IMG/VR virus record: IMGVR_UViG_3300025687_000022
Strand: one strand, 5' to 3'
DNA length: 64,000 bases
DNA from: a virus
Every line of letters begins with the position of its first letter. Positions within the stretch are counted from its first letter, which is position 1. Position numbers and translations under genes: made by a program. The notes beneath the pieces are model-generated. The model had not been told where the DNA came from, made no database searches, and was given only the letters and a program-made list of their open reading frames with translations. Below are positions 34,751 to 53,042 of the stretch, in pieces.

Positions 34751-35332
34751 TTACCAGAATCTACCGGGGACATTTGTACCAAAGTCTTTATGAGCCCTGC
34801 AAGCCCAATAACCGGGTTTTGTTTTATCTTTTTTCTGATCGCACTTGTGCCTTGCAGCAAAACTTTTACGAGCTTCTGGGTCGTTCCAGTTGCCTTTTAG
34901 ACCACCTTTTGCGTCACCATAAGTAACTTTCTTGACATTACCTGTTTTTGGATCGCGAACATAAACTTTATATTTCTTTCCTGAACCAGTATTTTTGGTT
35001 GGCTTGTTTAGTGGCGGGTCTTTTTTCTTGGACTCTTCTTCTAAAACTTCATCGTACATTGGAAAATCAAGCGGGACTCTTTCACCTTCAAATATCGCCC
35101 ACTCACCTAAATCGGTATGCTTGAGGGTATGAAGATCAATTAACTGAGGATTAATTTCTTTATTCTCGTACATCTTTCTTGCTTCGTGAATAACACGAAA
35201 ATAGTTATCAGACCCAATACGATAAATATTTCTTGAAAAAGGAATCTTATTTTCAAGATGGTAGTCTACCATTTCAATAGCTTCGGTTTCTTCTTTAATT
35301 ATTTGCTTTAATTTAGCTTCTGTTATTTTCAT
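34751..35332 (-). CDS. Leader-bearing (MKIT class) protein with basic C-terminal domain
   Basis: MKITEAKLKQIIKEE; basic domain KKYKVYVRDPKTGNVKKV...RKSFAARHKC...GYWACR. Confidence 0.7.
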   Translation of the reverse strand: MKITEAKLKQIIKEETEAIEMVDYHLENKIPFSRNIYRIGSDNYFRVIHEARKMYENKEINPQLIDLHTLKHTDLGEWAIFEGERVPLDFPMYDEVLEEESKKKDPPLNKPTKNTGSGKKYKVYVRDPKTGNVKKVTYGDAKGGLKGNWNDPEARKSFAARHKCDQKKDKTKPGYWACRAHKDFGTNVPGRFW

Positions 35333-36354
35333 GGTTGGTTTCCTTTGGATACGTTTAAAACTTCCATAAAATGTTCGTATGCTGTGCCGTAGTATTCAGA
35401 AGATTGAAACAATCTTCGTAGTACTCGTGGCAGCGACTCACAGAAGGTGAGATCAAGGCTCGTCAGGTTCGTACAGCCCGCCAGACCGTCTACGTTCTCC
35501 AGCGACGTGCACCAGTAAGCGTCGAGGGTCGTCAGATTCGTACAGCCCGCCAGACCGTCTACGTTCTGCAGTGACCTACACCGGCTGAGGTCGAGGTCCG
35601 TCAGGTTCGTAAGCCCCTGGAGCCCGTCTACGTTCTGAAGCGACTTGCAATTGCTGAGGTCGAGACTCGTCAGGTTCGTAAACCCCTGGAGTGCATCTAC
35701 GTTCTGAAGCGACTTGTTCCCGGTGAGGAAGAGGCTCGTCAAGTTCGTAAGCCCCTGGAGCCCGTCTACGTTCTGCAGCGACGAGCACCTTTCGAGGTTG
35801 AGGTCCGTCAGGTTCGTAAGCCCCTGGAGCCCATTTACGTTCTGCAGCGACGAGCACCATCCGAGGTCGAGGCTCGTCAGGCTCGTGCAGCCCTTTAGCC
35901 CGTCTACGTTCTCCAGCGAATAGCAATGGTTGATGTCGAGGCTCGTCAGGCTCGTAAGCCCCTGGAGTCCGTCCACATTACGCAGCGAATTGCAATAGCT
36001 GAGGTCTATTTTTGTTGTAACGTTTAGTTCACGTAAGCCTGACAAGAAATTAACATTTTCTTCTTCTATATCTGACTCTGCAAACTGATCAATTACTTCT
36101 AGCTTTTTTAAGATTTCGCTATTTCCTGCTGGATCGCTGGCTTTAATTACGTCTTTGTACAGTAAATAAACCTCTACTCCTTGTGCAAACTCCCAAGGAT
36201 CATTTGAAGATAGAAGTCTTATTATTTTTTGTGCCGGCGTAAGTTCTTCCTCTTCTTCATAATCATAATCATCATCATATTCGTCTTCTTCAATAAGAAG
36301 CTTAACAACTTCTTCTTTGATGATCTGATTCAATTTTGATTTAGTTATTTTCAT
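35329..36354 (-). CDS. Leader-bearing LRR protein 1 (N-cap type A, about 8 repeats)
   Basis: MKITKSKLNQIIKEE leader; 23-aa repeats LxxLxLxxCxSLxNVDGL. Confidence 0.9.
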   Translation of the reverse strand: MKITKSKLNQIIKEEVVKLLIEEDEYDDDYDYEEEEELTPAQKIIRLLSSNDPWEFAQGVEVYLLYKDVIKASDPAGNSEILKKLEVIDQFAESDIEEENVNFLSGLRELNVTTKIDLSYCNSLRNVDGLQGLTSLTSLDINHCYSLENVDGLKGCTSLTSLDLGWCSSLQNVNGLQGLTNLTDLNLERCSSLQNVDGLQGLTNLTSLFLTGNKSLQNVDALQGFTNLTSLDLSNCKSLQNVDGLQGLTNLTDLDLSRCRSLQNVDGLAGCTNLTTLDAYWCTSLENVDGLAGCTNLTSLDLTFCESLPRVLRRLFQSSEYYGTAYEHFMEVLNVSKGNQP

Positions 36355-37208
36355 CCTTTTTTACCTGATTTTGATTTCTTGCCCCAATTTCCACGCTCTC
36401 CACAAGCTGATGGTGTTGGTCTGCAAGAAGGATATTTAGATCTTTTTTCATCTCCAGACCTACCGCATGGAGAGCACTTCTTTTTGCCTGTCTTTTCGTC
36501 CTTTCTGCAAGTGTTGCAATCAACCCAGCCACCTTTCTTTCCAGGTGCTCCTTTACGACCAAACCAATCGCGAAGAGAAGTTTCAGATGATGGCTTCTTA
36601 GTTAGTTTTCTTTTTTTTTCATTTAGCTCTTTTTGTATTTCTTCGTCAATAAGAGAACTAAGAAAATCTGCCTGAGAGCCATGCTTTTTAACAGAATCTT
36701 CAAGTTGACCAATAATTTCTTTTATTTTCTTAATATCTTGGTCGGACATTTCTTTGCTTTCAAAAACTTTATTTATTTCTTCATCAATTATTTGATCGAG
36801 ATGCTCAAAATCAATAGATTCTTTTTTGGAATTGCCCCAATTTTTAGCACCTACTTTACGACATTTAACAAGTGCCCCTGAAGCGTATGCAGATGGCCAA
36901 ACTTTATAACGAGATTTAACTTTATGATAACAAGCATCTTTCTTTCCTGAAGAATTCTTTTTCTTTTTTCTATCAGCTACCTTGCGAGCACGTTTCTTGC
37001 CCTTTTGTTGCTTTTTCTTTTTCTCGTTTATTTCTTCTTCCTCAAGAGTGGCGGTGCCTCCTGCTTTTTTATAAAGTTGAGATGCTTCTTCTTTTGAGAT
37101 CATGCCAAGTCGAAGCATTTTTTTAATAGCTTCTCTTTGCCTTTGTTTTCTTTCCTCGTTAGAACGAGTAATTTCTTCTTCGTTAATATCACCATATAAA
37201 TCTTGCAT
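36351..37208 (-). CDS. Lys-rich multidomain protein, probably head-associated and nucleic-acid binding
   Basis: KKDACYHKVKSRYKVWPSAYASGALVKCRK and LRDWF...GWVDC...KYPSCRP blocks separated by acidic LDQIIDEE-type linkers. Confidence 0.65.
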   Translation of the reverse strand: MQDLYGDINEEEITRSNEERKQRQREAIKKMLRLGMISKEEASQLYKKAGGTATLEEEEINEKKKKQQKGKKRARKVADRKKKKNSSGKKDACYHKVKSRYKVWPSAYASGALVKCRKVGAKNWGNSKKESIDFEHLDQIIDEEINKVFESKEMSDQDIKKIKEIIGQLEDSVKKHGSQADFLSSLIDEEIQKELNEKKRKLTKKPSSETSLRDWFGRKGAPGKKGGWVDCNTCRKDEKTGKKKCSPCGRSGDEKRSKYPSCRPTPSACGERGNWGKKSKSGKKG

Positions 37209-37264
37209 AGTTTTGGTATCCTTGCTTTAAATAGTTAGCAGTCAAAGGACAATACAAAAAAATA

Positions 37265-38197
37265 TTATCCTTTTAAAACTTCCATAAACTGCTCGTATGC
37301 TGTGCCACTGCTATCAGATTCAAACCTTTCTTGTAATTCTGGTGGTAGCGATGAGCACTCTATGAGGGAGAGGCTCGTCAGGTTCGTGCAGCCCTTCAAC
37401 CCATCTACGTTCTGCAGCGAATTGCAGAAGCCGAGGTTGAGGTACATCAGGTTCGTGCATTCCTTTAGCCCGTCTACGTTCTCCAGCGACTCGCAGAAGC
37501 TGAGGTAGAGGTACATCAGGTTCGTGCATTCCTTTAGCCCGTCCACGTTCTGCAGCGACTTGCACCTGTTGAGGTTGAGCCAATTCAAGTTCGTACAGCC
37601 CGCCAGCCCGTCTACGTTCTGCAGCAACTCGCATTTGTAGAGGTTGAGGTCCGTCAGGTTCGTGAGTCCTTGGAGCCCGTCTACGTTCTCCAGCGACGTG
37701 CACCCGTTGAGTTTGAGGCTCGTCAGGTTCTTGCAAAACCTTAAAAAATCAACGTTTGTGATAAAATCATTTGCAATATTAAGTCTCTCAATCTGATCAA
37801 GCATATTTTTAACACGATCAGATTTTTCAGCAAAATAGTTTAAAATCATCCCAAGTTGTTGCGGAACAATTTCTTGCGGAAGATCAAATCCTTGTGTAGT
37901 TATTGAATTACTTTTTGAGTCGAAAACGAAATGACTTGCAATTGTATCGATGAGTTGTTGATATTCGAGTTGTGAAAATCCAGGTTGTGGATCTTCAAGG
38001 GCGTCAAGAATTGAAAGACCTTGCTGTACATTAGCAGAATCATCTGAAATTAGAAGCTTGATTATTTTTTGTGCGTAAGTAAGTTCTTCTTCTTCGTAAT
38101 CATAATCATCATAATCATCATATTCGTCTTGTTCAACAAGAAGCTTAACAACTTCTTCTTTGATTATTTGCTTTAGTTTAGTTTTGGTGATTTTCAT
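37265..38197 (-). CDS. Leader-bearing LRR protein 2 (N-cap type B, about 5 repeats)
   Basis: Same leader and 23-aa LRR. Confidence 0.9.
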   Translation of the reverse strand: MKITKTKLKQIIKEEVVKLLVEQDEYDDYDDYDYEEEELTYAQKIIKLLISDDSANVQQGLSILDALEDPQPGFSQLEYQQLIDTIASHFVFDSKSNSITTQGFDLPQEIVPQQLGMILNYFAEKSDRVKNMLDQIERLNIANDFITNVDFLRFCKNLTSLKLNGCTSLENVDGLQGLTNLTDLNLYKCELLQNVDGLAGCTNLNWLNLNRCKSLQNVDGLKECTNLMYLYLSFCESLENVDGLKECTNLMYLNLGFCNSLQNVDGLKGCTNLTSLSLIECSSLPPELQERFESDSSGTAYEQFMEVLKG

Positions 38198-39144
38198 GGT
38201 TGGTTTCCTTTAGATGCATTTAAAGCTTTCATAAACTGTTCGTATGCTGTGCCGCTGCTATCAGTTCCAAAATATTTTTGCAATTTTATTGGCAGCGACT
38301 TGCACCCTTCGAGGCTGAGGCTTATCAGATTCGTGCAGTCCTCCAGACCGTCTACGTTCTGCAACGACTCGCACCTGTAGAGGTCGAGTTCCGTCAGGTT
38401 CGTGCATTCCTTTAACCCGTCTACGTTCTCCAGCGACTCGCACCCTTCGAGGGTGAGGTGCGTCAGGTTCGTGCATTCCTTTAGCCCGTCTACGTTCTGC
38501 AGCGACTTGCACCCTTGGAGGTCGAGGGTCGTCAGACTCGCACAGCCCCCCAGCCCATCTACGTTCTGCAGCTTATCGCACCCGTTGAGATAGAGGGTCG
38601 TCAGGTTCGAGCAGCCCTTCAGCGCGTCTACGTTCTCCAGCGACTTACATTCACTGAGGTCGAGCCACGTCAGGTTCGTAAGCCCCTCCAGCCCGTCTAC
38701 GTTCTCCAGCGAGTTGCAGAAGCCGAGGTCGAGCCTCCACAGGTTCGTAAGCCCCTGGAGTCCGTCCACGTTCTGCAGTGATTTGCACCCTTCGAGGATG
38801 ATTTTTTCTGTAACGTTTAGAACACTTAAGCCCGACAAGAAATTAACGTTTTGTATGTCTGGCGACCTTGCAAACTGATCAATCACTCTTAATTTTTCTA
38901 AGATCTGATTATTTCCTGCTGGATCGCTGGCTTCAATATCGTCTTTGAAAAGTAAATAAACCTCTAATCCTTGTGCAAAAGTGCCAGGATCAGGTGAAGA
39001 TAGAAGTCTGATTATTTTTTGTGCGTAAGTAAGTTCTTCTTCCTCTTCTTCGTAATCATAATCATCATATTCGTCTTGTTCAATAAGAAGCTTAACTACT
39101 TCTTCTTTGATGATTTGCTTTAAAGTTGCTTTAGTGATTTTCAT
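38194..39144 (-). CDS. Leader-bearing LRR protein 3 (type A, about 7 repeats)
   Basis: Same leader and 23-aa LRR. Confidence 0.9.
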   Translation of the reverse strand: MKITKATLKQIIKEEVVKLLIEQDEYDDYDYEEEEEELTYAQKIIRLLSSPDPGTFAQGLEVYLLFKDDIEASDPAGNNQILEKLRVIDQFARSPDIQNVNFLSGLSVLNVTEKIILEGCKSLQNVDGLQGLTNLWRLDLGFCNSLENVDGLEGLTNLTWLDLSECKSLENVDALKGCSNLTTLYLNGCDKLQNVDGLGGCASLTTLDLQGCKSLQNVDGLKECTNLTHLTLEGCESLENVDGLKECTNLTELDLYRCESLQNVDGLEDCTNLISLSLEGCKSLPIKLQKYFGTDSSGTAYEQFMKALNASKGNQP

Positions 39145-40040
39145 GGTTGGTTTCCTTTGGATGCATTTAAAGCTTTCATAAACTGTTCGTATGCTGTGCC
39201 GATGTGCTCAAAAGAATGAAAAGATCTTTGCAGTGCTCGCGGCAGCGACTCGCACCCGTTGAGGAAGAGGCTCGTCAGATTCGTGCAGCCCTTCAGCGCG
39301 TCTACGTTCTGCAGCGACGTGCACCCGCTAAGGTCGAGGCTTTTCAGGTTCGTAAGCCCCTGGAGCCCGCCTACGTTCTGCAGCGACTCGCATCTGTTGA
39401 GGTAGAGGGACGCCAGATTCGTACAGCCCTCCAGCCCGTCTATGTTCTGTAGCGACGTGCACCAGCTGAGGTCGAGTTCCGTCAGGTTCGTGCATTCTTT
39501 TAGCCCGTCTACGTTCTGCAGCGACTCGCACCCGCTGAGGTGGAGCCAATCCAGATTCATAAGCCCCTGGAGCCCGTCTACGTTCTGCAGCGAATCGCAC
39601 CTGCTGAGGTCGAGTTCCGTCAGGTTCGTGAGCCTTTGGGGCTCGTCTACGTTCTGGAACCCGTCTACGTTCTTCAGCGACTCGCACCCGCTGAGGTCTA
39701 TTTCTTCTGTGACGTTTAGATCACTTAAGACTGACAAGGAACCAACGTCTGGTATATCTGACCCTGCAAACTGATCAATCACTCTTAGCTTTTCTAAGAT
39801 TTGGCTATTTTCTGTTTGAGCGTTAGCTTCAATATCGTCTTTGACCAAAGAATAAATCTCTACTCCTTGTGCAAAAGTGTCAGGATCTTTTGAAGATAGA
39901 AATCTGATTATTTTTTGTGCCGGCGTAAGTTCTTCTTCTTCGTAATCATAATCATCATAATCATATTCGTCTTGCTCAACAAGAAGCTTAACAACTTCTT
40001 CTTTGATTATTTGCTTTAAAGTTGATTTGGTTATTTTCAT
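39141..40040 (-). CDS. Leader-bearing LRR protein 4 (type A, about 6 repeats)
   Basis: Same leader and LRR; one repeat has a partial duplication. Confidence 0.9.
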   Translation of the reverse strand: MKITKSTLKQIIKEEVVKLLVEQDEYDYDDYDYEEEELTPAQKIIRFLSSKDPDTFAQGVEIYSLVKDDIEANAQTENSQILEKLRVIDQFAGSDIPDVGSLSVLSDLNVTEEIDLSGCESLKNVDGFQNVDEPQRLTNLTELDLSRCDSLQNVDGLQGLMNLDWLHLSGCESLQNVDGLKECTNLTELDLSWCTSLQNIDGLEGCTNLASLYLNRCESLQNVGGLQGLTNLKSLDLSGCTSLQNVDALKGCTNLTSLFLNGCESLPRALQRSFHSFEHIGTAYEQFMKALNASKGNQP

Positions 40041-41089
40041 AATGAGTTCCTTTTAGATGCTTTTAGGGCTTCCATAAACTTCTCGTGTGCTGTGCCACTG
40101 CTATCAGTTGCAAAATATTCTTGCAATTCTGGTGGCAGCGACGAACACCAGCTGAGTTCGAGAATCGTGAGCTTTGTAAGCCCCTGGAGTGCATCTACGT
40201 TCTGCAGCGACTCGCAACCGGCGAGGTTCAGGGTCGTCAGGTTCGTAAGCCCTTGGAGCCCGTCTACGTTCTGCAGCGACGAGCACATGTTGAGGTAGAG
40301 GGTCGTCAGGTTCGTAAGCCCCTGGAGCCCATCCACGTTCTGCAGCGACTTGCACCCTTGGAGGTCGAGGGTCGTCAGGTTCGTAAGCCCCTGGAGCCCA
40401 TTTATGTTCTGCAGTGACTTGCACCCTCTGAGGTAGAGGGTCGCCAGGTTCATAAGCCCCTGGAGTGAATCTACGTTCTGCAGCGACGTGCACCCGCTGA
40501 GGTCGAGGGTCGTCAGGTTCGTGCAGCCCTCCAGCCCGTCTACGTTCTGCAGCGACGTGCACTCGTAGAGGTTGAGGGTCGTCAGGTTCGTGCAGCCCTT
40601 CAGCCCATTTACGTTCTGCAGCGACTCGCACCAGCCGAGGTTGAGGCGCGTCAGGTTCGTGCAAAACCTTAAAAAATCAACGTTTGTGATAAAATCATTA
40701 AGATAGAACACCAGATTCTCAATCTGAGCAAGCATATCTTTAAAATGATCAGATTTTTCAGCAAAATAGTTTAAAATCATCTCAAGGGTTTCATTTGGGA
40801 TCTTAAATCTTCGAATAGTTATTCTGCCGCCTGATCTAAAATCGATATAACTTGCAATTGTATCGATGAGTTGTTGATCTTCAAGAGCGTCAAGAATTGT
40901 AAGACCTTGTTCTACATTAGCAGAATCATCTGAAGATAGAAGCTTGATTATTTTTTGTGCCGGTGTAAGTTCTTCTTCTTCTTCTTCATAATCATCATCA
41001 TAATAATCATCATATTCGTCTTGCTCAACAAGAAGCTTAACAACTTCTTCTTTGATTATTTGCTTTAACTTAGTTTTAGTGATTTTCAT
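40037..41089 (-). CDS. Leader-bearing LRR protein 5 (type B, about 7 repeats)
   Basis: Same leader and 23-aa LRR. Confidence 0.9.
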   Translation of the reverse strand: MKITKTKLKQIIKEEVVKLLVEQDEYDDYYDDDYEEEEEELTPAQKIIKLLSSDDSANVEQGLTILDALEDQQLIDTIASYIDFRSGGRITIRRFKIPNETLEMILNYFAEKSDHFKDMLAQIENLVFYLNDFITNVDFLRFCTNLTRLNLGWCESLQNVNGLKGCTNLTTLNLYECTSLQNVDGLEGCTNLTTLDLSGCTSLQNVDSLQGLMNLATLYLRGCKSLQNINGLQGLTNLTTLDLQGCKSLQNVDGLQGLTNLTTLYLNMCSSLQNVDGLQGLTNLTTLNLAGCESLQNVDALQGLTKLTILELSWCSSLPPELQEYFATDSSGTAHEKFMEALKASKRNSL

Positions 41090-42255
41090 GGTTGGTTTCC
41101 TTTGGATGCGTTCAAAGCTTTCATAAACTTCTCATGCGCTGTGCTACTGTTATCAGATTCAAACAATTTTTGTAATCCTAATGGCAGCGACCTGCACCTG
41201 TAGAGGTCGAGGCTTTTCAGGTTCGTGCAGCCCTTCAGCCCGTCTACGTTCTGCAGTGACCTGCAATAGCGGAGGTCGAGGCTCGTCAGGTTCGTGCAGC
41301 CCTCCAGACCGTCTACGTTCTGCAGAGACTCGCAGAAGCGGAGGTCGAGGGTCGTCAGGTTCGTGCAGCCCTTCAGCCCGTCTACGTTTTCCAGCGAACT
41401 GCAATAGCGGAGGTCGAGGCTCGTCAGGTTCGTGCATTCCTTTAGCCCGTCTACGTTCTCCAGCGACTTGCACTCGTAGAGGGTGAGGGTCGTCAGGTTC
41501 GTGCATTCCTTTAACCCGTCTACGTTCTGCAGCGACCTGCACCAGCTGAGGTCGAGGGTCGTCAGATTCGTGCAGCCCTCCAGCACATCTACGTTCTCCA
41601 GCGACGTGCACCTGTTGAGGTCGAGTTTCGTCAGGTTCGGTAGGGACTTCAAGACACCGAGCGCCCCAAGAGACTGCAGCGCCGTGAACGTGCCTCCGCC
41701 GAGGTAGAGGGTCGTCAGGTTCGTAAGCCCCTGGAGCCCGTCTACGTTCTGCAGCTTCTCACACCAGTAGAGGTCGAGTTCCGTCAGGTTCGTACAGCCC
41801 GCCAACCCGTTTACGTTCTCCAGCGAATCGCACTCGTAGAGGCGCAGGATCGCCAGACTCGCACAGCCCTTCAGCCCGTCTATGTTCTGCAGTGACTTGC
41901 AAGAGCTAAGGTCTATTTGCTCTGTAATATTTATCTCTTTTAAACCTGACAAGAAGTCCACGTTTTGTATATCTGACAATGCAAACTGATCAATTACTTG
42001 TAGCTTTGCTATAATCTCATCATTTTCTGTTGGAGCGTTAACTTCAATTTCGTCTTTGACCAATGAATAAATCTCTACTCCTTGTGCAAAAGTGTCAGGA
42101 TCATTTGAAGATAGAAATCTTATTATTTTTTGTGCGTAAGTAAGTTCTTCCTCATCATCATAATCATCATAATCATCATATTCGTCTTGTTCAATAAGAA
42201 GCTTAACAACTTCTTCTTTGATTATTTGCTTTAACTTAGTTTTAGTGATTTTCAT
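41086..42255 (-). CDS. Leader-bearing LRR protein 6 (type A, about 10 repeats, one atypical)
   Basis: Same leader and 23-aa LRR. Confidence 0.9.
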   Translation of the reverse strand: MKITKTKLKQIIKEEVVKLLIEQDEYDDYDDYDDEEELTYAQKIIRFLSSNDPDTFAQGVEIYSLVKDEIEVNAPTENDEIIAKLQVIDQFALSDIQNVDFLSGLKEINITEQIDLSSCKSLQNIDGLKGCASLAILRLYECDSLENVNGLAGCTNLTELDLYWCEKLQNVDGLQGLTNLTTLYLGGGTFTALQSLGALGVLKSLPNLTKLDLNRCTSLENVDVLEGCTNLTTLDLSWCRSLQNVDGLKECTNLTTLTLYECKSLENVDGLKECTNLTSLDLRYCSSLENVDGLKGCTNLTTLDLRFCESLQNVDGLEGCTNLTSLDLRYCRSLQNVDGLKGCTNLKSLDLYRCRSLPLGLQKLFESDNSSTAHEKFMKALNASKGNQP

Positions 42256-43307
42256 GGTTGGTTTCCTTGCATAATAGCATTTCTTAGATCATTATTTATT
42301 GTTTTACACAGATACCTGCCTTTTAATCCAAGTCTTTGCCAATTTTGAAGCCAATAAGACTCTAACTCTTGAGGAATATATCCGCATCTTTCGCTAGCAC
42401 CAGTTGTAGGATTAATTTCTTTATTTCCGTTTGTTGAATCAAGAATGCGAAGATACATATCATAAATATTTGCTTTTTCTTGTTCGGAAGTATTAGCTTC
42501 TATCCAATCATAAAGGCTGTTGAAGTTGAGCAAATCTTCACGCGAAATAGGAGCCCCATAAATTTTTTGAAGCAGCTGTAGAGCCTCTGAAGGGCTGTGA
42601 GCGACCTTTTGACCTGTGCTTTTATCAAATACGCCCTCTACGTGGTTAAACGAATAGTTTTTGGCTCCAAACATAGACAAAACAAGCTGTGTTCTATGTA
42701 AGCCTTTTAACATTGGTTGTGTTTCAGAGGGAAAATCAGAAAAATAAGAAAAAGTAAGCCAATTTTTGTTTCCAAGCATCCAATCCATTTGAACACCGAT
42801 ATCTTGTTGCTCTCCAGCTTCATTATGTTGAGGAAAAAGAGTGAACATGTTGCCAGGACGCACTTTTTTTAAATCACTAATGATTAAAGTAGAGTTCTCG
42901 CCAATATATTTGGCAAGTTCGTATAAAAATGCTCTTAACTCAACTTGTTCTGGCGTTGCTGTTCTTGCACGCTTAACAAATCTTTGATAAGTTGCTTTCC
43001 AGTCGTCTGGGTTTAAATTCCAGCTTTGTAGAGCCTCATCAGTAACCTTTTTATCTGGAAAAAGATCAGAAACATCAACAGCAAGGTCAATATCGCCTGA
43101 TTTTGCTTTTTTGCCGACTGATCCAAGGGGCTCAAAAGTTTGAAATAAACTAGAATGCTGCGGAAACAGCCTTGATAGCTCTTCATAATACTTTTCAAGT
43201 GTTGGCTGAATATAACCAAGAGGAATTGGACCTACAGATTGGTCCTGAAAAACATTTCCACCTTCTGTAATCAAAAATCTCCTCCAATTTTCAAATAACT
43301 TTTGCAT
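42252..43307 (-). CDS. Leader-bearing Pol-beta-superfamily nucleotidyltransferase
   Basis: Leader MQKLFENWRRFLITE; LGSVGKKAKSGDIDLAVD (hGS...DxD) with a third Asp in VQMDW. Confidence 0.75.
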   Translation of the reverse strand: MQKLFENWRRFLITEGGNVFQDQSVGPIPLGYIQPTLEKYYEELSRLFPQHSSLFQTFEPLGSVGKKAKSGDIDLAVDVSDLFPDKKVTDEALQSWNLNPDDWKATYQRFVKRARTATPEQVELRAFLYELAKYIGENSTLIISDLKKVRPGNMFTLFPQHNEAGEQQDIGVQMDWMLGNKNWLTFSYFSDFPSETQPMLKGLHRTQLVLSMFGAKNYSFNHVEGVFDKSTGQKVAHSPSEALQLLQKIYGAPISREDLLNFNSLYDWIEANTSEQEKANIYDMYLRILDSTNGNKEINPTTGASERCGYIPQELESYWLQNWQRLGLKGRYLCKTINNDLRNAIMQGNQP

Positions 43308-43349
43308 TTCTATAATAATCCTAAAATTAAATCAACCAAAGCTTCTACA

Positions 43350-43904
43350 TCATCTGGATTGGGCTTTATGTTCAATATTTTCTTGTAAATATTCATCATA
43401 ATCAGCAGAATCTTCAAAAGCTTCTGTTGCCGTCTTGATATTTTCTGGTTTTAAAGCTATTTTCCACTCTTTTCCATCTCTGCGAGCACCATACATAGCA
43501 GAACTACCAGGAATTTCTGGATCTGAATAAAAAACAATCCCTGGTGGTATTTGCATATCACTTACAGACACTATTAGTAGATCGTACTCTTGTGGATCGC
43601 CAGAAGATATACCCCCTATGATCGCATCAATTTGTCCAGACCGCGAAAATGCTTGACCAAGTGCTTCGTTAAAGTCTTTAAAAAAATAAATACGATATTC
43701 TATCTCGCCTTTTTCATTTCGATAGAATTTATCTTTATCTTTAGGCTTATTATAAGATTTTAAAGTGTCAGCACGCACTTTTGTAACGTGATAAATCGGG
43801 GATCCGACCATATCTATATTACCAAGCCGTTCTCCAAAATTTGAGAACGGCTCTTCAACGCCTTCTTTTAAGAAAATTCTCCAAGAATCATAAATTTTTT
43901 TCAT
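43350..43904 (-). CDS. Leader-bearing protein with ART/Tpt1-like fold features
   Basis: Likely start MKKIYDSWRIFLKE at 43904; IYHVT...RIYFF...FYSDPE...KPENI pattern. Confidence 0.45.
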   Translation of the reverse strand: MKKIYDSWRIFLKEGVEEPFSNFGERLGNIDMVGSPIYHVTKVRADTLKSYNKPKDKDKFYRNEKGEIEYRIYFFKDFNEALGQAFSRSGQIDAIIGGISSGDPQEYDLLIVSVSDMQIPPGIVFYSDPEIPGSSAMYGARRDGKEWKIALKPENIKTATEAFEDSADYDEYLQENIEHKAQSR

Positions 43905-44370
43905 TTTTAAGTCTCTCAAGTTCTTTTTCTAATAAATAGACATTAAAAGTTGTTTGGGAAAGACTTTTATCACTCTTTAATTGTTCTATTGAAGCCCATT
44001 TTGAATCGTTATGCTCAACAAAACCAGATTCTGGATTTTTCTTGAATTTTATTTGACCTGACCAATCGCGAGTAAAGTAATAATAACGAATATAATCTTT
44101 AAATTCTTCTTTTGAAGCGTATGTTACGTTATTTTGATCGCATTTTAAGTTTGTTTCTTCTTTTAACTCACGAACAACGGCTTCCTCAAAAGAAGAATCG
44201 TCTAAATCTACGTGACCTCCTGGCAAATCCCAATAATTTTTCATTATTGGTGCCGTATTAGTTCGTTTTATGATCAAAATCTTGTCATTTTTGTCTAAAC
44301 AAACCAAGCTAACAACATCATCACGACCTTTTTTCATTTTGATCATGATTTTTATCATTTCAGACAACAT
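43888..44370 (-). CDS. NUDIX hydrolase
   Basis: WDLPGGHVDLDDSSFEEAVVRELKEETNL Nudix box. Confidence 0.9.
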   Translation of the reverse strand: MLSEMIKIMIKMKKGRDDVVSLVCLDKNDKILIIKRTNTAPIMKNYWDLPGGHVDLDDSSFEEAVVRELKEETNLKCDQNNVTYASKEEFKDYIRYYYFTRDWSGQIKFKKNPESGFVEHNDSKWASIEQLKSDKSLSQTTFNVYLLEKELERLKNEKNL

Positions 44371-44371
44371 T

Positions 44372-45115
44372 TTATCTGCAAACTCTCATTTTTAAATCTG
44401 TCATTTGGCAAAAATCAACCAAAGCGTTGTCTAAATCAAGAACTTGTATTGGTTGAACCCAAATAATGTCCCCAACGACCTGTAAATTTGGTTGCCATTC
44501 GACATCGACACCCCAAAGAATACCAACTAAGTCGCCATTATCGTCATAGACGACAGATCCAGACGATCCAAACCAGCCGTAACTATGCATAATTATCTGA
44601 ATTCCGGTATCCCCCGTCGTTTCATAGCCAGCAACACGACCTCTAAAGGTCATAATTTCGTGAGTTGAGGGAAAACCAGAGTAAGTTATTTCCTCTCCTA
44701 CGTTCATTTGCTTTTTGCGTGGAGAATATCTAATCGGTTTTGCATTTTGCAAGTCAGCAACAGGATAAACAATAGCGATATCATAAACTGGATCTGCATA
44801 AATAAGCACCCCAGGCATAGCTTCATTACCATGAGTGATCAAAAATAGTTTTCCGATCTCATTTCCAGTTACATGCTTTGCTGTTAAAATAAAATTTGAG
44901 CCTTTATACCTGATCAGGGAACCAGATCCGTGACCTTGCCCAATACTTAAGACTCTAACCGCAGCATTTCGCACTTGCATTTCAACTTTAGACGAAATTT
45001 CTGATACAGGAAAGACCCCTTCAATTAGATTTTCGTCAGAAAATGGCAACTGAAGGGGCTCAGAGTGAGCCTGAGTTCCAAAAAGCAAGCAAAAAGCAAA
45101 AAGTAATTTTTTCAT
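44372..45115 (-). CDS. Trypsin-like serine protease with signal peptide
   Basis: Signal peptide MKKLLFAFCLLFGTQAHS; catalytic triad LTAKHV, YDIA and GSSGS. Confidence 0.85.
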   Translation of the reverse strand: MKKLLFAFCLLFGTQAHSEPLQLPFSDENLIEGVFPVSEISSKVEMQVRNAAVRVLSIGQGHGSGSLIRYKGSNFILTAKHVTGNEIGKLFLITHGNEAMPGVLIYADPVYDIAIVYPVADLQNAKPIRYSPRKKQMNVGEEITYSGFPSTHEIMTFRGRVAGYETTGDTGIQIIMHSYGWFGSSGSVVYDDNGDLVGILWGVDVEWQPNLQVVGDIIWVQPIQVLDLDNALVDFCQMTDLKMRVCR

Positions 45116-45141
45116 TTATTGTTTCTCCCACAATAAATAGA

Positions 45142-46124: not shown

Positions 46125-46144
46125 TTTATATTTTCCTGCCTTGG

Positions 46145-48070: not shown

Positions 48071-48101
48071 AAATTTATCCCTTTTTACAGTAGATAGTAT
48101 C

Positions 48102-48866
48102 TTATCTTTTTGAAAGAGCTTTTTTTAGTCTTTCATTAATAACATTACGATGGTGCCAACGTGATTTTTTGGTTATGTTTTTCTTTAAGATTTTAGATAC
48201 TCTTTCGTTCATTTCTTTGATAAGATCTGCGTGTTCAACCTCATCTAATTCTTCAGTTTCTTCAGTTTCTTCAGAATTATCAGGTTCAAATGGATATTCT
48301 GAGTCAAAGAAAGGAATAACAAATTTACGAGACAACCTTTGAACCGGAGGTCCAGCGCTGGGACCACCTTTTGGATAAGCCATAGTATACATTCTGGAAC
48401 CCCCAGGCTCTTGTGAATAATAATCAGATCTAAAATCAGCTTTATCGCCAGTTAAAACAACATCTCTTCTCTGTATTGTTTCGCCGGTATCACAAAGAAT
48501 ATATTCGTATATCATTTTACCGTCTTGCATAGAACCCCAAATAACAGCTTCTTGTCCGAATTCTTTGCCAAATTGTAAAATCTCATCACGAGCAACATTT
48601 GGAATAATAAAAGATCTTTCTTCATTTCCAAATTTACCACGGATTCGCCTGTAGCCAATCTTCATACTTTTTAGCTTGTCTTCAAACTGCCTTAGAAGTG
48701 CGTCGTTCTCTTGTTTTGATAATTCTTCGGCATTTGGGTTTTCTGAGGTCATGATACCGACAGATTGTATGGTTGGTCTTTGCCCTGTTATAATTCTAAT
48801 AATGTCTCTAAATTGAGATTCTTCATTTAATAAAAACTTTTTCCATTCTGTTATTATTTTTTTCAC
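48102..48866 (-). CDS. Leader-bearing DUF3293-like protein
   Basis: Leader MKKIITEWKKFLLNEE; GIMTSENP...EN...GKFGNEERSFII...FGQEAVIW. Confidence 0.65.
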   Translation of the reverse strand: MKKIITEWKKFLLNEESQFRDIIRIITGQRPTIQSVGIMTSENPNAEELSKQENDALLRQFEDKLKSMKIGYRRIRGKFGNEERSFIIPNVARDEILQFGKEFGQEAVIWGSMQDGKMIYEYILCDTGETIQRRDVVLTGDKADFRSDYYSQEPGGSRMYTMAYPKGGPSAGPPVQRLSRKFVIPFFDSEYPFEPDNSEETEETEELDEVEHADLIKEMNERVSKILKKNITKKSRWHHRNVINERLKKALSKR

Positions 48867-48884
48867 ATCATGCTCCTTTTAAAA

Positions 48885-48914
48885 TAATATAACTTTATTA
48901 TATCGCTGTGTCAA
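48885..48914 (-). promoter_or_regulatory. Sigma70-type promoter
   Basis: Minus strand TTGACA-N17-TATATT followed by AGGAG. Confidence 0.65.
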
Positions 48915-48950
48915 TAAAATTTACTTTTCTATAAGTTCTTGAATTGAGCC

Positions 48951-49844
48951 TTAGTTTCCTTTGGATGCGTTTAAAGCTTTCATAAACTGTTCGTGTGCTG
49001 TGTCGTATTCATCAGATTTAAACAAATCTTGTAATCCTAATGGCAGTGACGCGCACCTGCGGAGGTCGAGGGTCGTCAGGTTCGTGCATTCCTTCAGTAC
49101 GTCTACGTTCTGCAGCGACTTGCACCAGTTGAGCTTGAGCGTCTCCAGGTTTGTGCATTCCTTTAACCCGTCTACGTTCTGCAGCGACTCGCACCAGTAG
49201 AGGTAGAGGTACGTCAGGTTCGTACAGCCCTCCAACCCGTCTACGTTCTGCAGCGAATCGCACTCCCAGAGGTTGAGGGTCGTCAGGTTCGTACAGCCCT
49301 TCAGTCCGTCTACGTTCTGCAGCGACTCGCACCCCCAGAGTTCGAGGCTCGTCAGGTTCGTGCAAAACTTTAAAAAATCAACGTTTGTCATAAATTTATC
49401 TTTAATATTAAGACTCTCAATCTTAGCAAGCATATATTGAACACGAGAAGATTTTTCAGCAAAATAGTTTAAAATCATCCAAAATGTTACATTTGAGACT
49501 TCAAAACCTTGAATAGTTATTAAACTACTTTTTGAGTCGAAAGTGAAATGACTTGCAATTGTATTGATGAGTTGTTGATATTCGAGTTTGAGCCGTTGAT
49601 ATTCGAGTTGTGAAACTCCAGGTTGTGGATTTTCAAGGGCGTCAAGAATTCCAAGACCTAGATTTACATATTCAGGATCAGGTGAAGATAGAAATCTGAT
49701 TATTTTTTGTGCTTCAGTAAGTTCTTCTTCTTCTTCTTCTTCTTCTTCTTCTTCTTCATCATAATCATCATATTCGTCTTGTTCAATAAGAAGCTTAACA
49801 ACTTCTTCTTTGATGATTTGCTTTTTAGTTTTAGTTATTTTCAT
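48951..49844 (-). CDS. Leader-bearing LRR protein 7 (A/B hybrid N-cap, about 4 repeats)
   Basis: Leader lacks one residue (MKITKTKKQIIKEE); 12-Glu run; LRR. Confidence 0.9.
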   Translation of the reverse strand: MKITKTKKQIIKEEVVKLLIEQDEYDDYDEEEEEEEEEEEELTEAQKIIRFLSSPDPEYVNLGLGILDALENPQPGVSQLEYQRLKLEYQQLINTIASHFTFDSKSSLITIQGFEVSNVTFWMILNYFAEKSSRVQYMLAKIESLNIKDKFMTNVDFLKFCTNLTSLELWGCESLQNVDGLKGCTNLTTLNLWECDSLQNVDGLEGCTNLTYLYLYWCESLQNVDGLKECTNLETLKLNWCKSLQNVDVLKECTNLTTLDLRRCASLPLGLQDLFKSDEYDTAHEQFMKALNASKGN

Positions 49845-50560
49845 GGTTGGCTTCTCTTAGATGCGTTCAAAGCTTCCATAAACTTCTCGTATGCTGTGCC
49901 ACTGCTATCAGTTTTAAACAATTGTTGTAATTTTATTGGCAGCGACCTGCACAGCCAGAGGCTGAGGCTCGTCAGGCTCGTAAGCCCCTGGAGCCCGTCT
50001 ACGTTCTGCAGCGAATAGCACCCGGCGAGGCTGAGGCTCGTCAGGCTCGTAAGCCCCTGGAGCCCGTCTACGTTCTGCAGCGACTTGCAGAAGCTGAGGT
50101 AGAGTCTCGTCAGGCTCGTGCATTCCTTTATCCCGTCTACGTTCTGCAGCGACTCGCAATCGCTGAGGTCGAGGGTCGTCAGGCTTGTAAGCCCCTGGAG
50201 CCCGTCTACGTTCTGCAGCGACGAGCACCAGCGGAGAACTATTTTTTCTGTAATATTTAGCTCACTTAAGCCTGACAAGAAGTCAACATCTTGTATTTTT
50301 GACTCTGCAAACTGATCAATTACTTTTAGCTTTTCTAAGATCTGATCATTTTCTGTTGGAGCATTAACTTCAATATCTTCTTTCAATTGGGTATAAAAAG
50401 ATAATGCTTGTGCAAAGTAACCAGGATCATTGCCGCTTAAACGATCTAGAATTGTTAACGCATATTGTTTATATTCATTTTCTTGATCTTCATTTTCTGT
50501 TAAAAGTTTGGTTACTTCTTCTTTGATTATTTGCTTTAGTTTAGTTTTGGTTATTTTCAT
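49841..50560 (-). CDS. Leader-bearing LRR protein 8 (divergent type A, about 4 repeats)
   Basis: Same leader and LRR; lacks the DY-rich tract. Confidence 0.9.
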   Translation of the reverse strand: MKITKTKLKQIIKEEVTKLLTENEDQENEYKQYALTILDRLSGNDPGYFAQALSFYTQLKEDIEVNAPTENDQILEKLKVIDQFAESKIQDVDFLSGLSELNITEKIVLRWCSSLQNVDGLQGLTSLTTLDLSDCESLQNVDGIKECTSLTRLYLSFCKSLQNVDGLQGLTSLTSLSLAGCYSLQNVDGLQGLTSLTSLSLWLCRSLPIKLQQLFKTDSSGTAYEKFMEALNASKRSQP

Positions 50561-50563
50561 AAT

Positions 50564-51304
50564 TTATCTATCCCATACAGAATGATTTAGCCATCTATTT
50601 TTTATATCCTCAGCTTCATCTGATGTAACTATTCCGCTTTGGACTTGGTTATGTAAATAGTTTTGTATTAGCTCTTCGATACTTTTTTGTGATTTTGATG
50701 CCTCTGCTCTAAATCCTATTAAAAATGCAGGAGTCTCGCAAGCGCTTGTAAAATACTCATACATTGAATTATATTCTTTTGTTGGCAGATAAGTGCAATT
50801 TGGTCGCTGAAAAGGTCTACCATCTTGAGTAAAATGATGAAGCTCGTGCGCCACAACATTAAATAGCTCATTTTCAATTGAAGCGATGTTGGAACCAGAT
50901 AAGAAAAGTCCCGGTCTAATAGTAAAATCAACAATAATCTTGCCACCATCCTCAGAATAGTCTGAAGCACCATCTATATTCCAGCCAACATGATTGCTGT
51001 CAAAATTGGTTGGAGTAAAAATAACTTCTACTTCAAATGCAGGTATAGCATCCTCATAGTTATCACTCCAGACTTCAACATCAACAGGATAATCCCAAGA
51101 ATAAAAGAAAGTTTTTTTATGTTTTGTTTTCTTTCCAGTTGCTGGTAGTATTTTTAAAATATCTTCAACGATTTTTTCTACTGTTTCTTTATAATAAAAA
51201 TCAGCATCTTGTAATCTAAACTCTGGAAACTCCATATCAACCTCCAATAAGTTTAATATTTCTTCTTTGATTATTTGCTTTAAATTTGATTTGGTTATTT
51301 TCAT
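50564..51304 (-). CDS. Leader-bearing (MKIT class) zincin-like metallopeptidase
   Basis: MKITKSNLKQIIKEEILNLLE; VAHELHHFTQ...YFTSACETPAF. Confidence 0.7.
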   Translation of the reverse strand: MKITKSNLKQIIKEEILNLLEVDMEFPEFRLQDADFYYKETVEKIVEDILKILPATGKKTKHKKTFFYSWDYPVDVEVWSDNYEDAIPAFEVEVIFTPTNFDSNHVGWNIDGASDYSEDGGKIIVDFTIRPGLFLSGSNIASIENELFNVVAHELHHFTQDGRPFQRPNCTYLPTKEYNSMYEYFTSACETPAFLIGFRAEASKSQKSIEELIQNYLHNQVQSGIVTSDEAEDIKNRWLNHSVWDR

Positions 51305-52278
51305 GGTTGGCTTGTCTTAGATGCATTTAAAGCTTCCATAAACTTCTCGTGTGCTGTACCGCTGCTATCAGTTCCAAAATATTTTTGCAATTTTATTGGC
51401 AGCGACTTGCACTCTTCGAGGCTGAGGCTTATCAGATTCGTGCAGCCCTCCAGCCCGTCTACGTTCTGCAGCGACTCGCACTCGTAGAGGTCGAGGTTCG
51501 CCAGGTTAGTGCAACCCTCCAGCCCGTCTACGTTCTGCAGTGACTCGCACCCGAAGAGGCTGAGGCTCGTCAGGTTCGTGCAGCCCTTCAGCCCGTCTAC
51601 GTTCACCAGCGACCTGCAATAGCTGAGGTCGAGGCTCGTCAGGTTTGTGCATTCCTTTAGCCCGTCTACGTTCTGTAGTGACTCACACCCGTTGAGGTCG
51701 AGGGTCGTCAGGTTCGTGCATTCCTTTAGCACGTCTACGTTCTTCAGCGATGAGCACCCGGTGAGGTAGAGGGTCGTCAGGTTTGTGCAGCCCTCCAGTC
51801 CATCCACGTTCTGCAGCGACCCGCAATAGCTGAGGTCAAGCTTCGTCAGGCTCGTAAACCTCTGGAGTGCATCTACGTTCTCCGGCGATTTGAGTCCCTT
51901 CAGCCCGTCTACGTTCTTCAGTGATCTGCACCCTTTGAGGATGATTTTTTGTGTAACGTTTAGTTCACGTAAGCCTGACAAGAAATTAACATTTTTTTCT
52001 TTTATATCTGAATCTGCAAACTGATCAATTACTTCTAGCTTTTCTAAGATTTGGCTATTTTCTGTTGGAGCGTTAGCTTCAATATCGTCTTTGACCAAAG
52101 AATAAATCTCTACTCCTTGTGCAAAAGTGTCAGGATCAGGTGAAGATAGAAATCTGATTATTTTTTGTGCCGGCGTAAGTTCTTCCTCTTCATAATCATC
52201 ATATTCGTCTTGCTCAACAAGAAGCTTAACAACTTCTTCTTTGATTATTTGCTTTAAATCTGATTTAGTTATTTTCAT
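51301..52278 (-). CDS. Leader-bearing LRR protein 9 (type A, about 7 repeats)
   Basis: Same leader and 23-aa LRR. Confidence 0.9.
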   Translation of the reverse strand: MKITKSDLKQIIKEEVVKLLVEQDEYDDYEEEELTPAQKIIRFLSSPDPDTFAQGVEIYSLVKDDIEANAPTENSQILEKLEVIDQFADSDIKEKNVNFLSGLRELNVTQKIILKGCRSLKNVDGLKGLKSPENVDALQRFTSLTKLDLSYCGSLQNVDGLEGCTNLTTLYLTGCSSLKNVDVLKECTNLTTLDLNGCESLQNVDGLKECTNLTSLDLSYCRSLVNVDGLKGCTNLTSLSLFGCESLQNVDGLEGCTNLANLDLYECESLQNVDGLEGCTNLISLSLEECKSLPIKLQKYFGTDSSGTAHEKFMEALNASKTSQP

Positions 52279-53042
52279 GGTCGGCTTCCTTTGGATGCAT
52301 TTAAAGCTTTCATAAACTTCTCGTGTGCTGTGCCTCTGTTATCAGTTTTAAACCATCGTTGTAATTCTGATGGCAGCGAATAGCACATGCTGAGGTCGAG
52401 GGTCGTCAGGTTCGTGCAGCCCTCCAGCCCGTCTATGTTCTTCAGCGACGTGCACCAGCTGAGGTCGAGGCTTTTCAGGTTCGTGCAGCCCTTCAGTCCG
52501 TCTACGTTCTGCAGCGACTCGCACGCGCCGAGTTCAAGGTACGTCAGATTCGTGAGTCCCTGGAGCCCGTCTACGTTCTCCAGGGACGTGCACCAGTTGA
52601 GGTTGAGTCCCCTCAGGTTCATGCAAAAACTTAAAAAATCAACGTTTGTCATAAATTCATCTGTAATATCAAGATTCTCAATCTGAGCAAGCATATTTTT
52701 AACATGAACAGATTTTTTAGCAAAATAATTTAAAATCATCCCAAGTTCTTGCGGAAGATCAAATCCTTGTGTAGTTATTGAAGCACTTGTTGGGTCGAAA
52801 TCGATATAACTTGCAATTGTATCGATGAGTTGTTGATCTCCAAGGTCGTCAAGAATTCCAAGACCTAGCACTACATTAGCAGAATCATCTGAAGTTAGAA
52901 GCTTGATTATTTTTTGTGCGTAAGTAAGCTCTTCTTCTTCGTAATCATAATCATCATAATCATCATATTCGTCTTGCTCAACAAGAAGCTTAACAACTTC
53001 TTCTTTAATTATTTGCTTTAAAGTTGATTTGGTTATTTTCAT
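52275..53042 (-). CDS. Leader-bearing LRR protein 10 (type B, about 3 repeats)
   Basis: Same leader and 23-aa LRR. Confidence 0.9.
   Translation of the reverse strand: MKITKSTLKQIIKEEVVKLLVEQDEYDDYDDYDYEEEELTYAQKIIKLLTSDDSANVVLGLGILDDLGDQQLIDTIASYIDFDPTSASITTQGFDLPQELGMILNYFAKKSVHVKNMLAQIENLDITDEFMTNVDFLSFCMNLRGLNLNWCTSLENVDGLQGLTNLTYLELGACESLQNVDGLKGCTNLKSLDLSWCTSLKNIDGLEGCTNLTTLDLSMCYSLPSELQRWFKTDNRGTAHEKFMKALNASKGSRP

What the first reader, a model, noticed from the sequence alone, without database searches (positions are those of the whole stretch)
35329..53042. LRR paralogs are segmental mosaics: caps and sub-blocks are shuffled between distant copies
Seen: there are two N-caps, type A (DPDTFAQGVEIY...VIDQFA; 35329, 38194, 39141, 41086, 49841, 51301) and type B (DDSANV...LIDTIAS...MILNYFA; 37265, 40037, 52275). 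48951 is a hybrid that begins FLSSPDP and continues as type B. C-caps assort independently of position and N-cap: LPIKLQKYFGTDSSGTA in 38194 and 51301; LPLGLQ in 41086 (A) and 48951 (B-like); LPPELQE in 37265 and 40037. Other shared blocks cross-cut these pairs: ASDPAGN (35329, 38194), NVNFLSGLRELNVT (35329, 51301), TTQGFDLPQE (37265, 52275). Partial repeat duplications appear in 39141 (NVDGFQNVDEP) and 51301 (NVDGLKGLKSPENVDAL). Inference: ongoing recombination or gene conversion through the conserved repeat core generates the diversity.
Basis: partly seen in the sequence, partly recalled or inferred. Interest (0 to 1): 0.75.

Follow-up and report, generated by a model that had tools for sequence, protein, structure and literature searches.

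The report
Recombining LRR gene arrays in phage
An uncultured large phage carries ten tandem leucine-rich-repeat binder genes that are patchworks of one another, and closely related phage strains from other samples show the patchwork still being re-cut by recombination.

Summary
All ten minus-strand genes, both N-cap types, the hybrid 48951, the cross-cutting C-caps, the shared sub-blocks and the two partial repeat duplications are present as described.

The mosaicism exceeds chance:
- PHI gives p=0.0002 for the six type-A genes, p=0.001 for the C-parts of all ten, and p<0.0004 for 23 family proteins.
- Trees for three segments reject one another in AU tests (p 0.0001-0.056).

Recombination is ongoing. 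Metagenome contigs that are 99-100% identical in flanking genes carry at least five array haplotypes. Crossovers lie in the leader (33-nt tract, 5.9-kb deletion), the repeat core (27-nt tract, chimeric gene), the C-tail and the N-cap/LRR boundary. There are also one- and two-unit indels. One 44-nt patch in 49841 of a strain is an exact copy of 51301.

Crossovers are not confined to the repeat core. Binding-face diversity comes mainly from point substitution under positive selection (dN/dS 2.3).

Each gene is also a compositional chimera. The array has GC3 about 0.85 and matches Verrucomicrobiota/Planctomycetota units; the caps have GC3 about 0.2.

The scan had already noted swapping for another LRR gene of this genome. 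I rate it a new variant of a known kind.

The parts
52275..53042 (-). LRR gene, N-cap B, 3 units plus C-cap (255 aa)
   Evidence: A strain allele lacks exactly one unit (L015). A 3-change patch in L013 matches 37265 exactly over 44 nt.
51301..52278 (-). LRR gene, N-cap A, mosaic of 39141-like, 35329-like and 38194-like segments (325 aa)
   Evidence: The donor tract 51700-51743 is copied into 49841 of strain L007.
50564..51304 (-). non-LRR gene carrying the same MKITK..KQIIKEE leader and junction cassette
49841..50560 (-). LRR gene, N-cap A with divergent TENEDQ linker (239 aa)
   Evidence: The recipient span 49964-50007 is converted in L007.
48951..49844 (-). LRR gene, hybrid of an A-like start and a B N-cap (297 aa)
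   Evidence: The L007 allele is B-like at the same site. A 48951-type gene follows g351 in L029.
42252..43307 (-). single-copy 351-aa gene used as anchor; it ends in ..QGNQP with an ATGA overlap, like the LRR tails
41086..42255 (-). LRR gene, N-cap A, 10 units including a 28-aa irregular unit (389 aa)
   Evidence: It is absent in L030/L034. Its leader tract 42190-42222 is the crossover site in L012.
40037..41089 (-). LRR gene, N-cap B, 7 units (350 aa)
   Evidence: The array and C-cap are swapped in L019. Repeat-core tract 40373-40399 corresponds to the L031 crossover.
39141..40040 (-). LRR gene, N-cap A, 6 units with an 18-nt partial duplication (299 aa)
   Evidence: P0004 is this gene minus two units. 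P0005 and L030 carry another N-cap on the same array.
38194..39144 (-). LRR gene, N-cap A, 7 units (316 aa)
   Evidence: In L034 its tail is fused to the 37265 tail and 37265 is missing.
37265..38197 (-). LRR gene, N-cap B, 5 units, short tail ..EVLKG (310 aa)
36351..37208 (-). non-LRR basic protein embedded in the array (285 aa)
35329..36354 (-). LRR gene, N-cap A, 8 units (341 aa)
   Evidence: Crossover partner in L012 (leader tract 36289-36321) and in L031 (core tract 35599-35625). One unit fewer in L012.
34751..35332 (-). non-LRR 193-aa gene with the leader; downstream boundary of the array in all haplotypes

Best explanation
The region is a hyperplastic locus of a large uncultured phage. 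It holds two tandem blocks of internalin-like LRR genes. Each gene has four modules:
- a conserved leader with a linker;
- a helical N-cap of type A or B;
- a variable number of 69-nt LRR units;
- a C-cap with a helical tail.

Short stretches that stay identical between paralogs (27-73 nt) lie in the tail/leader junction, the cap boundaries and the repeat core. They serve as substrates for homologous recombination within a genome and between co-infecting relatives.

Three outcomes are shown:
1. Unequal crossing-over deletes or fuses whole genes and adds or removes single units in register.
2. Short-patch gene conversion copies tens of nucleotides from one paralog into another.
3. A whole array with its C-cap is swapped between genes that have different leaders and N-caps.

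Point substitution under positive selection at the concave-face positions of the unit supplies the residue diversity that recombination then re-sorts.

Inferred, not shown:
- The proteins are binders aimed at host molecules.
- The shared leader may address them to the virion for injection.
- The GC-rich array was captured from a Verrucomicrobiota- or Planctomycetota-like genome.
For: Statistical signal: PHI and AU tests; segment identity tables.

Haplotypes next to a 99-100% identical anchor gene:
- L012: 5901-nt deletion with the crossover in a 33-nt leader tract.
- L030/L034: lack 41086.
- L031: chimeric gene with the crossover in a 27-nt repeat-core tract; 0 mismatches on the left, 14 in 297 nt on the right.
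- L034: 38194/37265 tail fusion.
- L029: a 48951-type gene follows g351.

Other events:
- Cassette swap: the 40037 allele of L019 is identical for 441 nt. It then carries the array and C-cap of P0032/P0014, which have another leader and N-cap.
- Unit indels.
- Templated patches: a 44-nt exact copy of 51301 in L007 49841; the 52275 alleles match 37265 or 40037.
- Differences (mismatches and gap positions) among near-identical strains run at 2.75/kb in LRR genes and 0.79/kb elsewhere, and are clustered.
- Exact shared tracts of 23-73 nt at the junctions between LRR genes.

Selection and fold:
- dN/dS is 2.3 at positions 2, 4, 5, 7, 16 and 23, and 0.17 in the framework.
- The model is an LRR solenoid with a helical cap. 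Its nearest solved folds are the Listeria internalins.
Against: - Every variant haplotype was seen on only one or two metagenome contigs. Reads could not be inspected, so single cases could be chimeric assemblies.
- The L015 patch in 41086 lies 10-20 nt from a contig end and was discounted.
- PHI on N parts alone is weak within the window (p=0.08 for A, 0.46 for B).
- No two units in the window are nearly identical (maximum 64/69). Conversion inside arrays is therefore rare or short.
- The direction of each structural event (deletion or insertion) is not polarised.
Confidence: 0.87

Rival explanations
1. The strain-level chimeras are artefacts. De Bruijn assemblers jumped between paralogs or between co-occurring phages at shared repeats. 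Only ancient mosaicism among the ten paralogs would then be real.
For: Variant proteins are singletons in the protein collection. Many contigs end inside the arrays. One apparent patch sits at a contig end.
Against: - The crossover tracts are 27-44 nt, far shorter than the 141-mers in the k141 contig names.
- The left arm of L031 is 100% identical over 684 nt to an allele assembled independently in another sample (L034).
- The L019 array equals P0032 and P0014 from other assemblies.
- Loss of 41086 is seen in two samples, L030 and L034.
- The in-window mosaic is reproduced by four assemblies.
Confidence: 0.08
2. There was no recombination. The shared blocks reflect duplication order plus convergent or constrained evolution of short cap motifs, and rate variation along the genes.
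For: Some shared motifs are short (LPLGLQ, ASDPAGN). The caps are probably under structural constraint. The number of taxa is small.
Against: - Segment trees are mutually rejected at nucleotide level.
- Discordance includes synonymous sites and exact tracts of 41-44 nt.
- Identical 34-aa tails sit on A and B N-caps with different linkers (P0021 and P0038).
- Clean two-parent chimeras exist.
Confidence: 0.03
3. Diversity is produced by a dedicated mutator, either a diversity-generating retroelement or a VLR-like programmed cassette assembly, rather than by general homologous recombination.
For: Variable codons keep their third base while the first two vary (NNC/NNG pattern). This superficially recalls targeted mutagenesis. 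The framework is nearly invariant.
Against: - No template/variable pair exists; the best unit pair is 64/69.
- The changes are not adenine-specific.
- All ten genes are complete ORFs.
- The NNC/NNG pattern follows from descent from one GC-rich unit plus positive selection.
- No reverse-transcriptase hit appeared among the 30 window proteins scanned. The scan was not exhaustive.
Confidence: 0.02

Closest known systems
Hyperplastic internal-protein (IP) loci of T-even/T4-type phages with capsid-targeting sequences, and PeSL-mediated modular shuffling (PMC9026906; PMC2839356, which cites Repoila et al. 1994)
   Same: Tandem, non-essential-looking genes with unrelated or variable bodies share a short conserved N-terminal leader. 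Conserved sequence at gene junctions is proposed there as the site of homologous recombination that inserts, deletes or replaces genes. Here, gene loss and fusion with the crossover in the leader is seen directly.
   Different: - The cargo is a ten-member LRR family, not small basic proteins.
- Crossovers also fall inside the coding body (repeat core, cap boundaries, tail).
- Leader cleavage, virion location and T4-type core genes were not shown in this window.
Tandem LRR gene clusters evolving by unequal crossing-over, gene conversion and positive selection on solvent-exposed residues: plant NLR/R-gene clusters (PMC3113787, PMC6771003) and the Leishmania PSA family (PMC2584048)
   Same: Tandem paralogs; repeat-number variation; chimeric genes; short conversion tracts; dN/dS above 1 at the x positions of LxxLxLxxC; conserved framework.
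   Different: The host is a phage genome of roughly 100-160 kb with haploid, population-level exchange. The units are 23 aa and internalin-like. The array is compositionally foreign to its own gene.
Listeria internalins (InlA, InlB, InlH; PDB 1o6v, 1h6t, 1h6u)
   Same: They are the best structural matches: a helical N-cap followed by short LRR units ending in ..L.N/C.I.D...L (Foldseek E 1e-10 to 1e-14). They also form a multigene family.
   Different: Internalins have 22-aa units with Asn, where the phage has 23-aa units with Cys. They have signal peptides and cell-wall anchors and no phage leader. Sequence identity is only 20-28%.
LRR arrays of Verrucomicrobiota and Planctomycetota proteins (Luteolibacter, Chthoniobacter and Planctomycetota MAGs: L021-L025)
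   Same: The same 23-aa unit (C.ALQNVDGLKGL...L.L). 51-61% aa identity over the array (best segment). The same position-specific codons (CTC at L1 and L3, TGC at C6, CTG at L9, AAC at N11). High GC.
   Different: The bacterial proteins have transmembrane or P-loop NTPase N-terminal regions. They have no MKITK leader, no A or B N-cap and no phage-type tail.

Membership tests
Leucine-rich repeat proteins (internalin-like short-unit class) | Tandem units with an LxxLxLxxN/CxL core | tested here: met
   Pfam LRR_4 E=4e-29 and 9e-24. 48 regular 23-aa units with L1, L3, C6, L9, N11 and L21 nearly invariant.
Leucine-rich repeat proteins (internalin-like short-unit class) | Curved solenoid with a capping N-terminal helical domain | tested here: met
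   AlphaFold2 model of 40037, pLDDT 82.9. Helices at 43-121, then one beta strand per unit. Top PDB matches are InlA, InlB and InlH. This is a prediction only.
Recombining tandem LRR cluster (R-gene / PSA-type evolutionary mode) | Incongruent phylogenies or a PHI signal between segments of paralogs | tested here: met
Recombining tandem LRR cluster (R-gene / PSA-type evolutionary mode) | Chimeric genes and copy-number or unit-number variants among close haplotypes | tested here: met
   L012, L031, L034, L030, L015, P0004. The contigs come from metagenome assemblies and reads were not checked.
Recombining tandem LRR cluster (R-gene / PSA-type evolutionary mode) | Positive selection on solvent-exposed x residues | tested here: met
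   Nei-Gojobori dN/dS is 2.3 at variable positions and 0.17 in the framework. No site-model likelihood test was run.
T4-type capsid-targeted internal/ejection proteins | A short conserved N-terminal leader shared by otherwise unrelated proteins of one phage | tested here: met
   The MKITK..KQIIKEE leader is on ten LRR genes and on two non-LRR genes, 34751 and 50564.
T4-type capsid-targeted internal/ejection proteins | The leader is removed by the prohead protease, and the protein is present in the virion and injected | not testable with these tools
   This needs virion proteomics. Only L/I-x-E-like motifs in the leader can be pointed to, which is inference.
T4-type capsid-targeted internal/ejection proteins | The phage has T4-type head-assembly core genes (gp21/22/23 homologues) | tested here: inconclusive
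No such hit among the 20 window proteins scanned against PHROGs. No whole genome is held.
Diversity-generating retroelement targets | A template/variable repeat pair with adenine-specific differences, plus a reverse transcriptase | tested here: not met
   The closest unit pair is 64/69. Substitutions are not A-specific. No RT was seen among the scanned ORFs, but the scan was not exhaustive.

The most novel reading that the evidence does not exclude
The phage maintains a germline library of injected LRR binders. It would be a viral counterpart of plant NLR clusters or lamprey VLRs. One conserved leader/junction cassette would serve both as the virion-addressing signal and as the recombination site that lets arrays captured from the host lineage be re-dealt within and between phages. 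New specificities against host defence or surface proteins would then arise on ecological time scales.
Probability: 0.25. Interest if true: 0.85.

Novelty: new variant of a known kind. Interest (0 to 1): 0.66.

Why it matters
Recombination at conserved junctions is the accepted route of plasticity in T4-type phages. Unequal exchange plus positive selection is the accepted route of LRR receptor diversification in plants and parasites. This locus combines both in one phage. Natural haplotypes also catch the individual events: gene loss, gene fusion, unit gain or loss, patch conversion and cassette swap.

It offers a tractable case for three measurements:
- how short a homology tract suffices in nature;
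- how a phage domesticates a compositionally foreign host-type domain;
- whether phages use diversified repeat binders in the arms race with their hosts.

Tried and rejected
- The LRR protein and a 14-kb stretch gave no match in the phage collection.
- IMG/VR gave no confirmed relative.
- No whole genome is held for the window.
DNA for P0014, P0032 and P0004, and independent contigs for the L012 junction, could therefore not be fetched. Those comparisons are at protein level only.
- The exact 318-aa L012 product is not in the protein collection under my coordinates.
- The metagenome scan anchored on g351 returned only six short loci.
- I searched variant patches for exact donors with fixed flanks and missed the real donors. 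A search for the longest covering match found them.
- The L015 patch in 41086 was discarded because it lies at a contig end.
- A DGR reading was considered and rejected.
- GC-biased conversion was considered as the cause of the high GC3. It is not favoured. Position-specific codons, including GTA at V12, are inherited and are shared with bacterial units. It is not excluded.
- PHROG scans gave no T4 structural hits in this window.


Full report
**Layout.** Every gene in the window lies on the minus strand. The window carries PhoH, ThyX, NUDIX, glycosyltransferases and two tRNAs. It has no close relative in the phage collection, and no whole genome is held for it. I read it as a large uncultured phage.

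They form two blocks:
- 52275, 51301, [246-aa non-LRR gene], 49841, 48951.
- 41086, 40037, 39141, 38194, 37265, [285-aa non-LRR gene], 35329.

Adjacent genes mostly overlap by ATGA.

**Observation.** I split each protein at its repeat motif.
- The 48951 hybrid shares an exact 41-nt tract with 51301 across the leader/N-cap junction.
- The 39141 irregular unit is an 18-nt tandem copy, and 51301 carries a 36-nt insertion.

**Is it more than chance?** A permutation PHI test that I wrote gives these values:
- p=0.0002 for the N and C parts of the six type-A genes (94 informative sites);
- p=0.0012 for the C parts of all ten genes;
- p=0.08 for type-A N parts alone;
- p=0.05 for type B.

Maximum-likelihood trees were built for three segments of the type-A genes: leader plus first half of the N-cap, second half plus pre-LRR block, and last unit plus C-cap. 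They differ. In AU tests each data set rejects the other trees at p=0.0001 to 0.039, with one borderline pair at 0.056.

Segment identity tables show the pattern plainly:
- 51301 follows 39141 in the leader and N-cap (95-97% nt).
- It follows 35329 in the pre-LRR block (92.8% against 77.8% to 39141).
- It follows 38194 in the last unit and C-cap (92-93%).
- 49841 is about 50% identical to all others in the first N-cap half, but 90% identical to 41086 and 51301 in the second.

The same holds across the wider family found in metagenomes:
- Three linker types combine with both N-cap types.
- Each main C-cap type occurs on both A and B N-caps.
- An identical 34-aa tail sits on P0021 (A) and P0038 (B).
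- PHI on 23 type-B proteins is 0.74 against a permuted 1.07 +/- 0.026.

**Strain haplotypes.** This is the strongest evidence. Public contigs that carry identical or near-identical flanking genes were fetched. Four assemblies reproduce the window's arrangement with 0-7 mismatches. Others differ in structure.

1. L012 fuses the upstream region and first 32 nt of 41086 to 35329. This removes 5901 nt. The crossover lies in a 33-nt identical leader tract.
2. L030 and L034, from two samples, lack 41086. The anchor gene g351 runs straight into a 40037-type gene.
3. L031 has a 326-aa chimera.
   - Its first 684 nt are 100% identical to the L034 allele of 40037.
   - The remaining 297 nt differ at 14 positions from the window's 35329.
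   - The usual 193-aa gene follows.
   - The crossover lies in the 27-nt repeat-core tract encoding GLQGLTNLT.
4. In L034 the tail of 38194 switches to the tail of 37265, and the 285-aa gene follows. 37265 has therefore been lost through a crossover in the tail.
5. In L029 the end of g351 and 57 nt of 41086-type leader lead into a 48951-type gene, followed by the DUF3293 gene.
6. In L019 the 40037 gene is identical for 441 nt and then carries a different array and C-cap. At protein level these equal P0032 and, with one extra unit, P0014. Both of those have a different leader and N-cap.
7. Exactly one unit is missing from 52275 in L015 and from 35329 in L012. Two units are missing from 39141 in P0004.

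**Short patches.** Among near-identical strains, differences (mismatches and gap positions) occur at 2.75 per kb in LRR genes against 0.79 per kb elsewhere. They come in tight clusters.
- In L007, 49841 has ten changes within 28 nt. The variant tract is an exact 44-nt copy of 51301 (window 51700-51743). The window allele has no such match.

These are templated conversions between paralogs, and they are polymorphic in the population.

**Substrates.** In the stretch from 30 nt upstream to 110 nt into each gene, the LRR paralogs share exact tracts of 14-73 nt. Most pairs share 23 nt or more, and 41086 and 40037 share 73. The anchor gene g351 ends in ..QGNQP with the same ATGA junction as the LRR tails. 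That may explain why arrays begin there.

**What recombination does not explain.**
- The 48 regular 69-nt units average 75% identity. No pair exceeds 64/69.
- Synonymous divergence is the same for units of one gene and of different genes (0.37 and 0.35). This fits thorough mixing or a single burst of amplification.
- Framework codons have dN/dS 0.17. Positions 2, 4, 5, 7, 16 and 23 have dN/dS 2.3. Positions 23, 2, 4, 5 and 7 are the x positions of LxxLxLxxC, the concave face in established LRR structures.

Binding-face residue diversity therefore comes mainly from point substitution under positive selection. Recombination re-sorts it and changes array length.

**Compositional chimera.** Within every gene, GC3 rises from 0.20-0.26 in the N part to 0.79-0.87 in the array. 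It returns to about 0.3 after the SLP of the C-cap. The switch happens within a few codons.
- Codon choice is position-specific: CTC at L1 and L3, CTG at L9 and L21, GTA at V12. All units therefore descend from one GC-rich unit.
- The closest cellular arrays are in Verrucomicrobiota and Planctomycetota MAGs (GC 0.62-0.70). They have the same 23-aa unit, 51-61% aa identity (best segment) and several of the same position-specific codons.
- I infer capture of the array from such a genome, possibly the host lineage. Amplification and slow amelioration would have followed.

**Fold.** An AlphaFold2 model of 40037 has pLDDT 82.9. It shows a low-confidence leader helix, a disordered acidic linker, a helical N-cap, the solenoid and a C-terminal helix. 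Listeria internalins are the best solved matches.

**Comparison with known systems.**
- T-even internal-protein loci have leaders shared by variable cargo. Conserved junction elements there are proposed to mediate shuffling (PMC9026906; PMC2839356).
- Plant R-gene clusters and Leishmania PSA show unequal exchange, conversion and selection on exposed LRR residues (PMC3113787, PMC6771003, PMC2584048).

This locus works like both. Membership in the T4 capsid-targeted class is untested, because cleavage and virion location cannot be examined here.

**Caveats.**
- All variant haplotypes come from short-read metagenome assemblies and are rare in the collection.
- Reads were not available.
- The crossover tracts are much shorter than the 141-mers in the k141 contig names, and several features recur in independent assemblies. 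I therefore give the artefact reading a low probability.

**Earlier notes.** This scan had already reported swapping and a variable face for another LRR gene of this genome, and had proposed the leader as a capsid address. No look-alike was recorded in other genomes.

Noticed in passing
window 35428-36009, 37343-37717, 38290-38802, 39240-39701, 40133-40645, 41182-41916, 49041-49346, 49937-50242, 51397-51945, 52371-52607: The LRR arrays have GC3 0.79-0.87, while the N parts and tails of the same genes have 0.20-0.35. The boundaries are sharp to within a few codons. Units share position-specific codons with Verrucomicrobiota and Planctomycetota LRR genes, which suggests capture from a high-GC genome.
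   Followed up: partly
window 33603-34739, 42252-43307, 43350-43919, 48102-48866: A second shared N-terminal motif, (L/I)(F/Y).(N/S/E)W(R/K).F(L/I), heads four otherwise unrelated proteins, including a DUF3293 protein. It is also kept in 54-66% identical relatives of g351 (L032, L033).
   Followed up: no
window 40104-40664, with similar ORFs at 41159-41611, 39328-39687 and 49018-49365: Long alternative-frame ORFs inside the GC-rich arrays (for example 186 aa of HEPD..PQPR repeats) are by-products of the repeat composition. One was called as a gene in a public contig (L014, 186 aa).
   Followed up: no
window 49715-49760 (48951 linker) and 49824: The acidic linker is a length-polymorphic GAA/GAT tract: plus 4 codons in L007, minus 1 codon in L020, and minus 1 Asp codon in 52275 of L012. 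The window's 48951 lacks the Leu8 codon that is present in ten other contigs.
   Followed up: partly
window 41605-41688 (41086, irregular unit): A 28-aa atypical unit (LYLGGGTFTALQSLGALGVLKSLPNLTK) interrupts the array. The same block occurs in type-A relatives P0008 and P0017 and in type-B P0013, so it is another module that crosses N-cap classes.
   Followed up: partly
window 44372-45115: A trypsin-like serine peptidase (Trypsin_2, E=7e-16) has an N-terminal hydrophobic signal-like segment. It sits between the two LRR blocks, next to a NUDIX hydrolase.
   Followed up: no
L021 1279-4122 and L023 1255-4002: The verrucomicrobial proteins with the closest LRR arrays are about 900-aa proteins. 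They have a P-loop NTPase region and hydrophobic segments upstream of the array, so they look like STAND/NLR-type sensors.
   Followed up: no
window 48102-48866 versus L007 4473-5051: In strain L007 the DUF3293 gene next to 48951 also differs by 26 positions in 575 nt, although the upstream genes are nearly identical. The exchanged segment in that strain seems to extend beyond the LRR gene.
   Followed up: no
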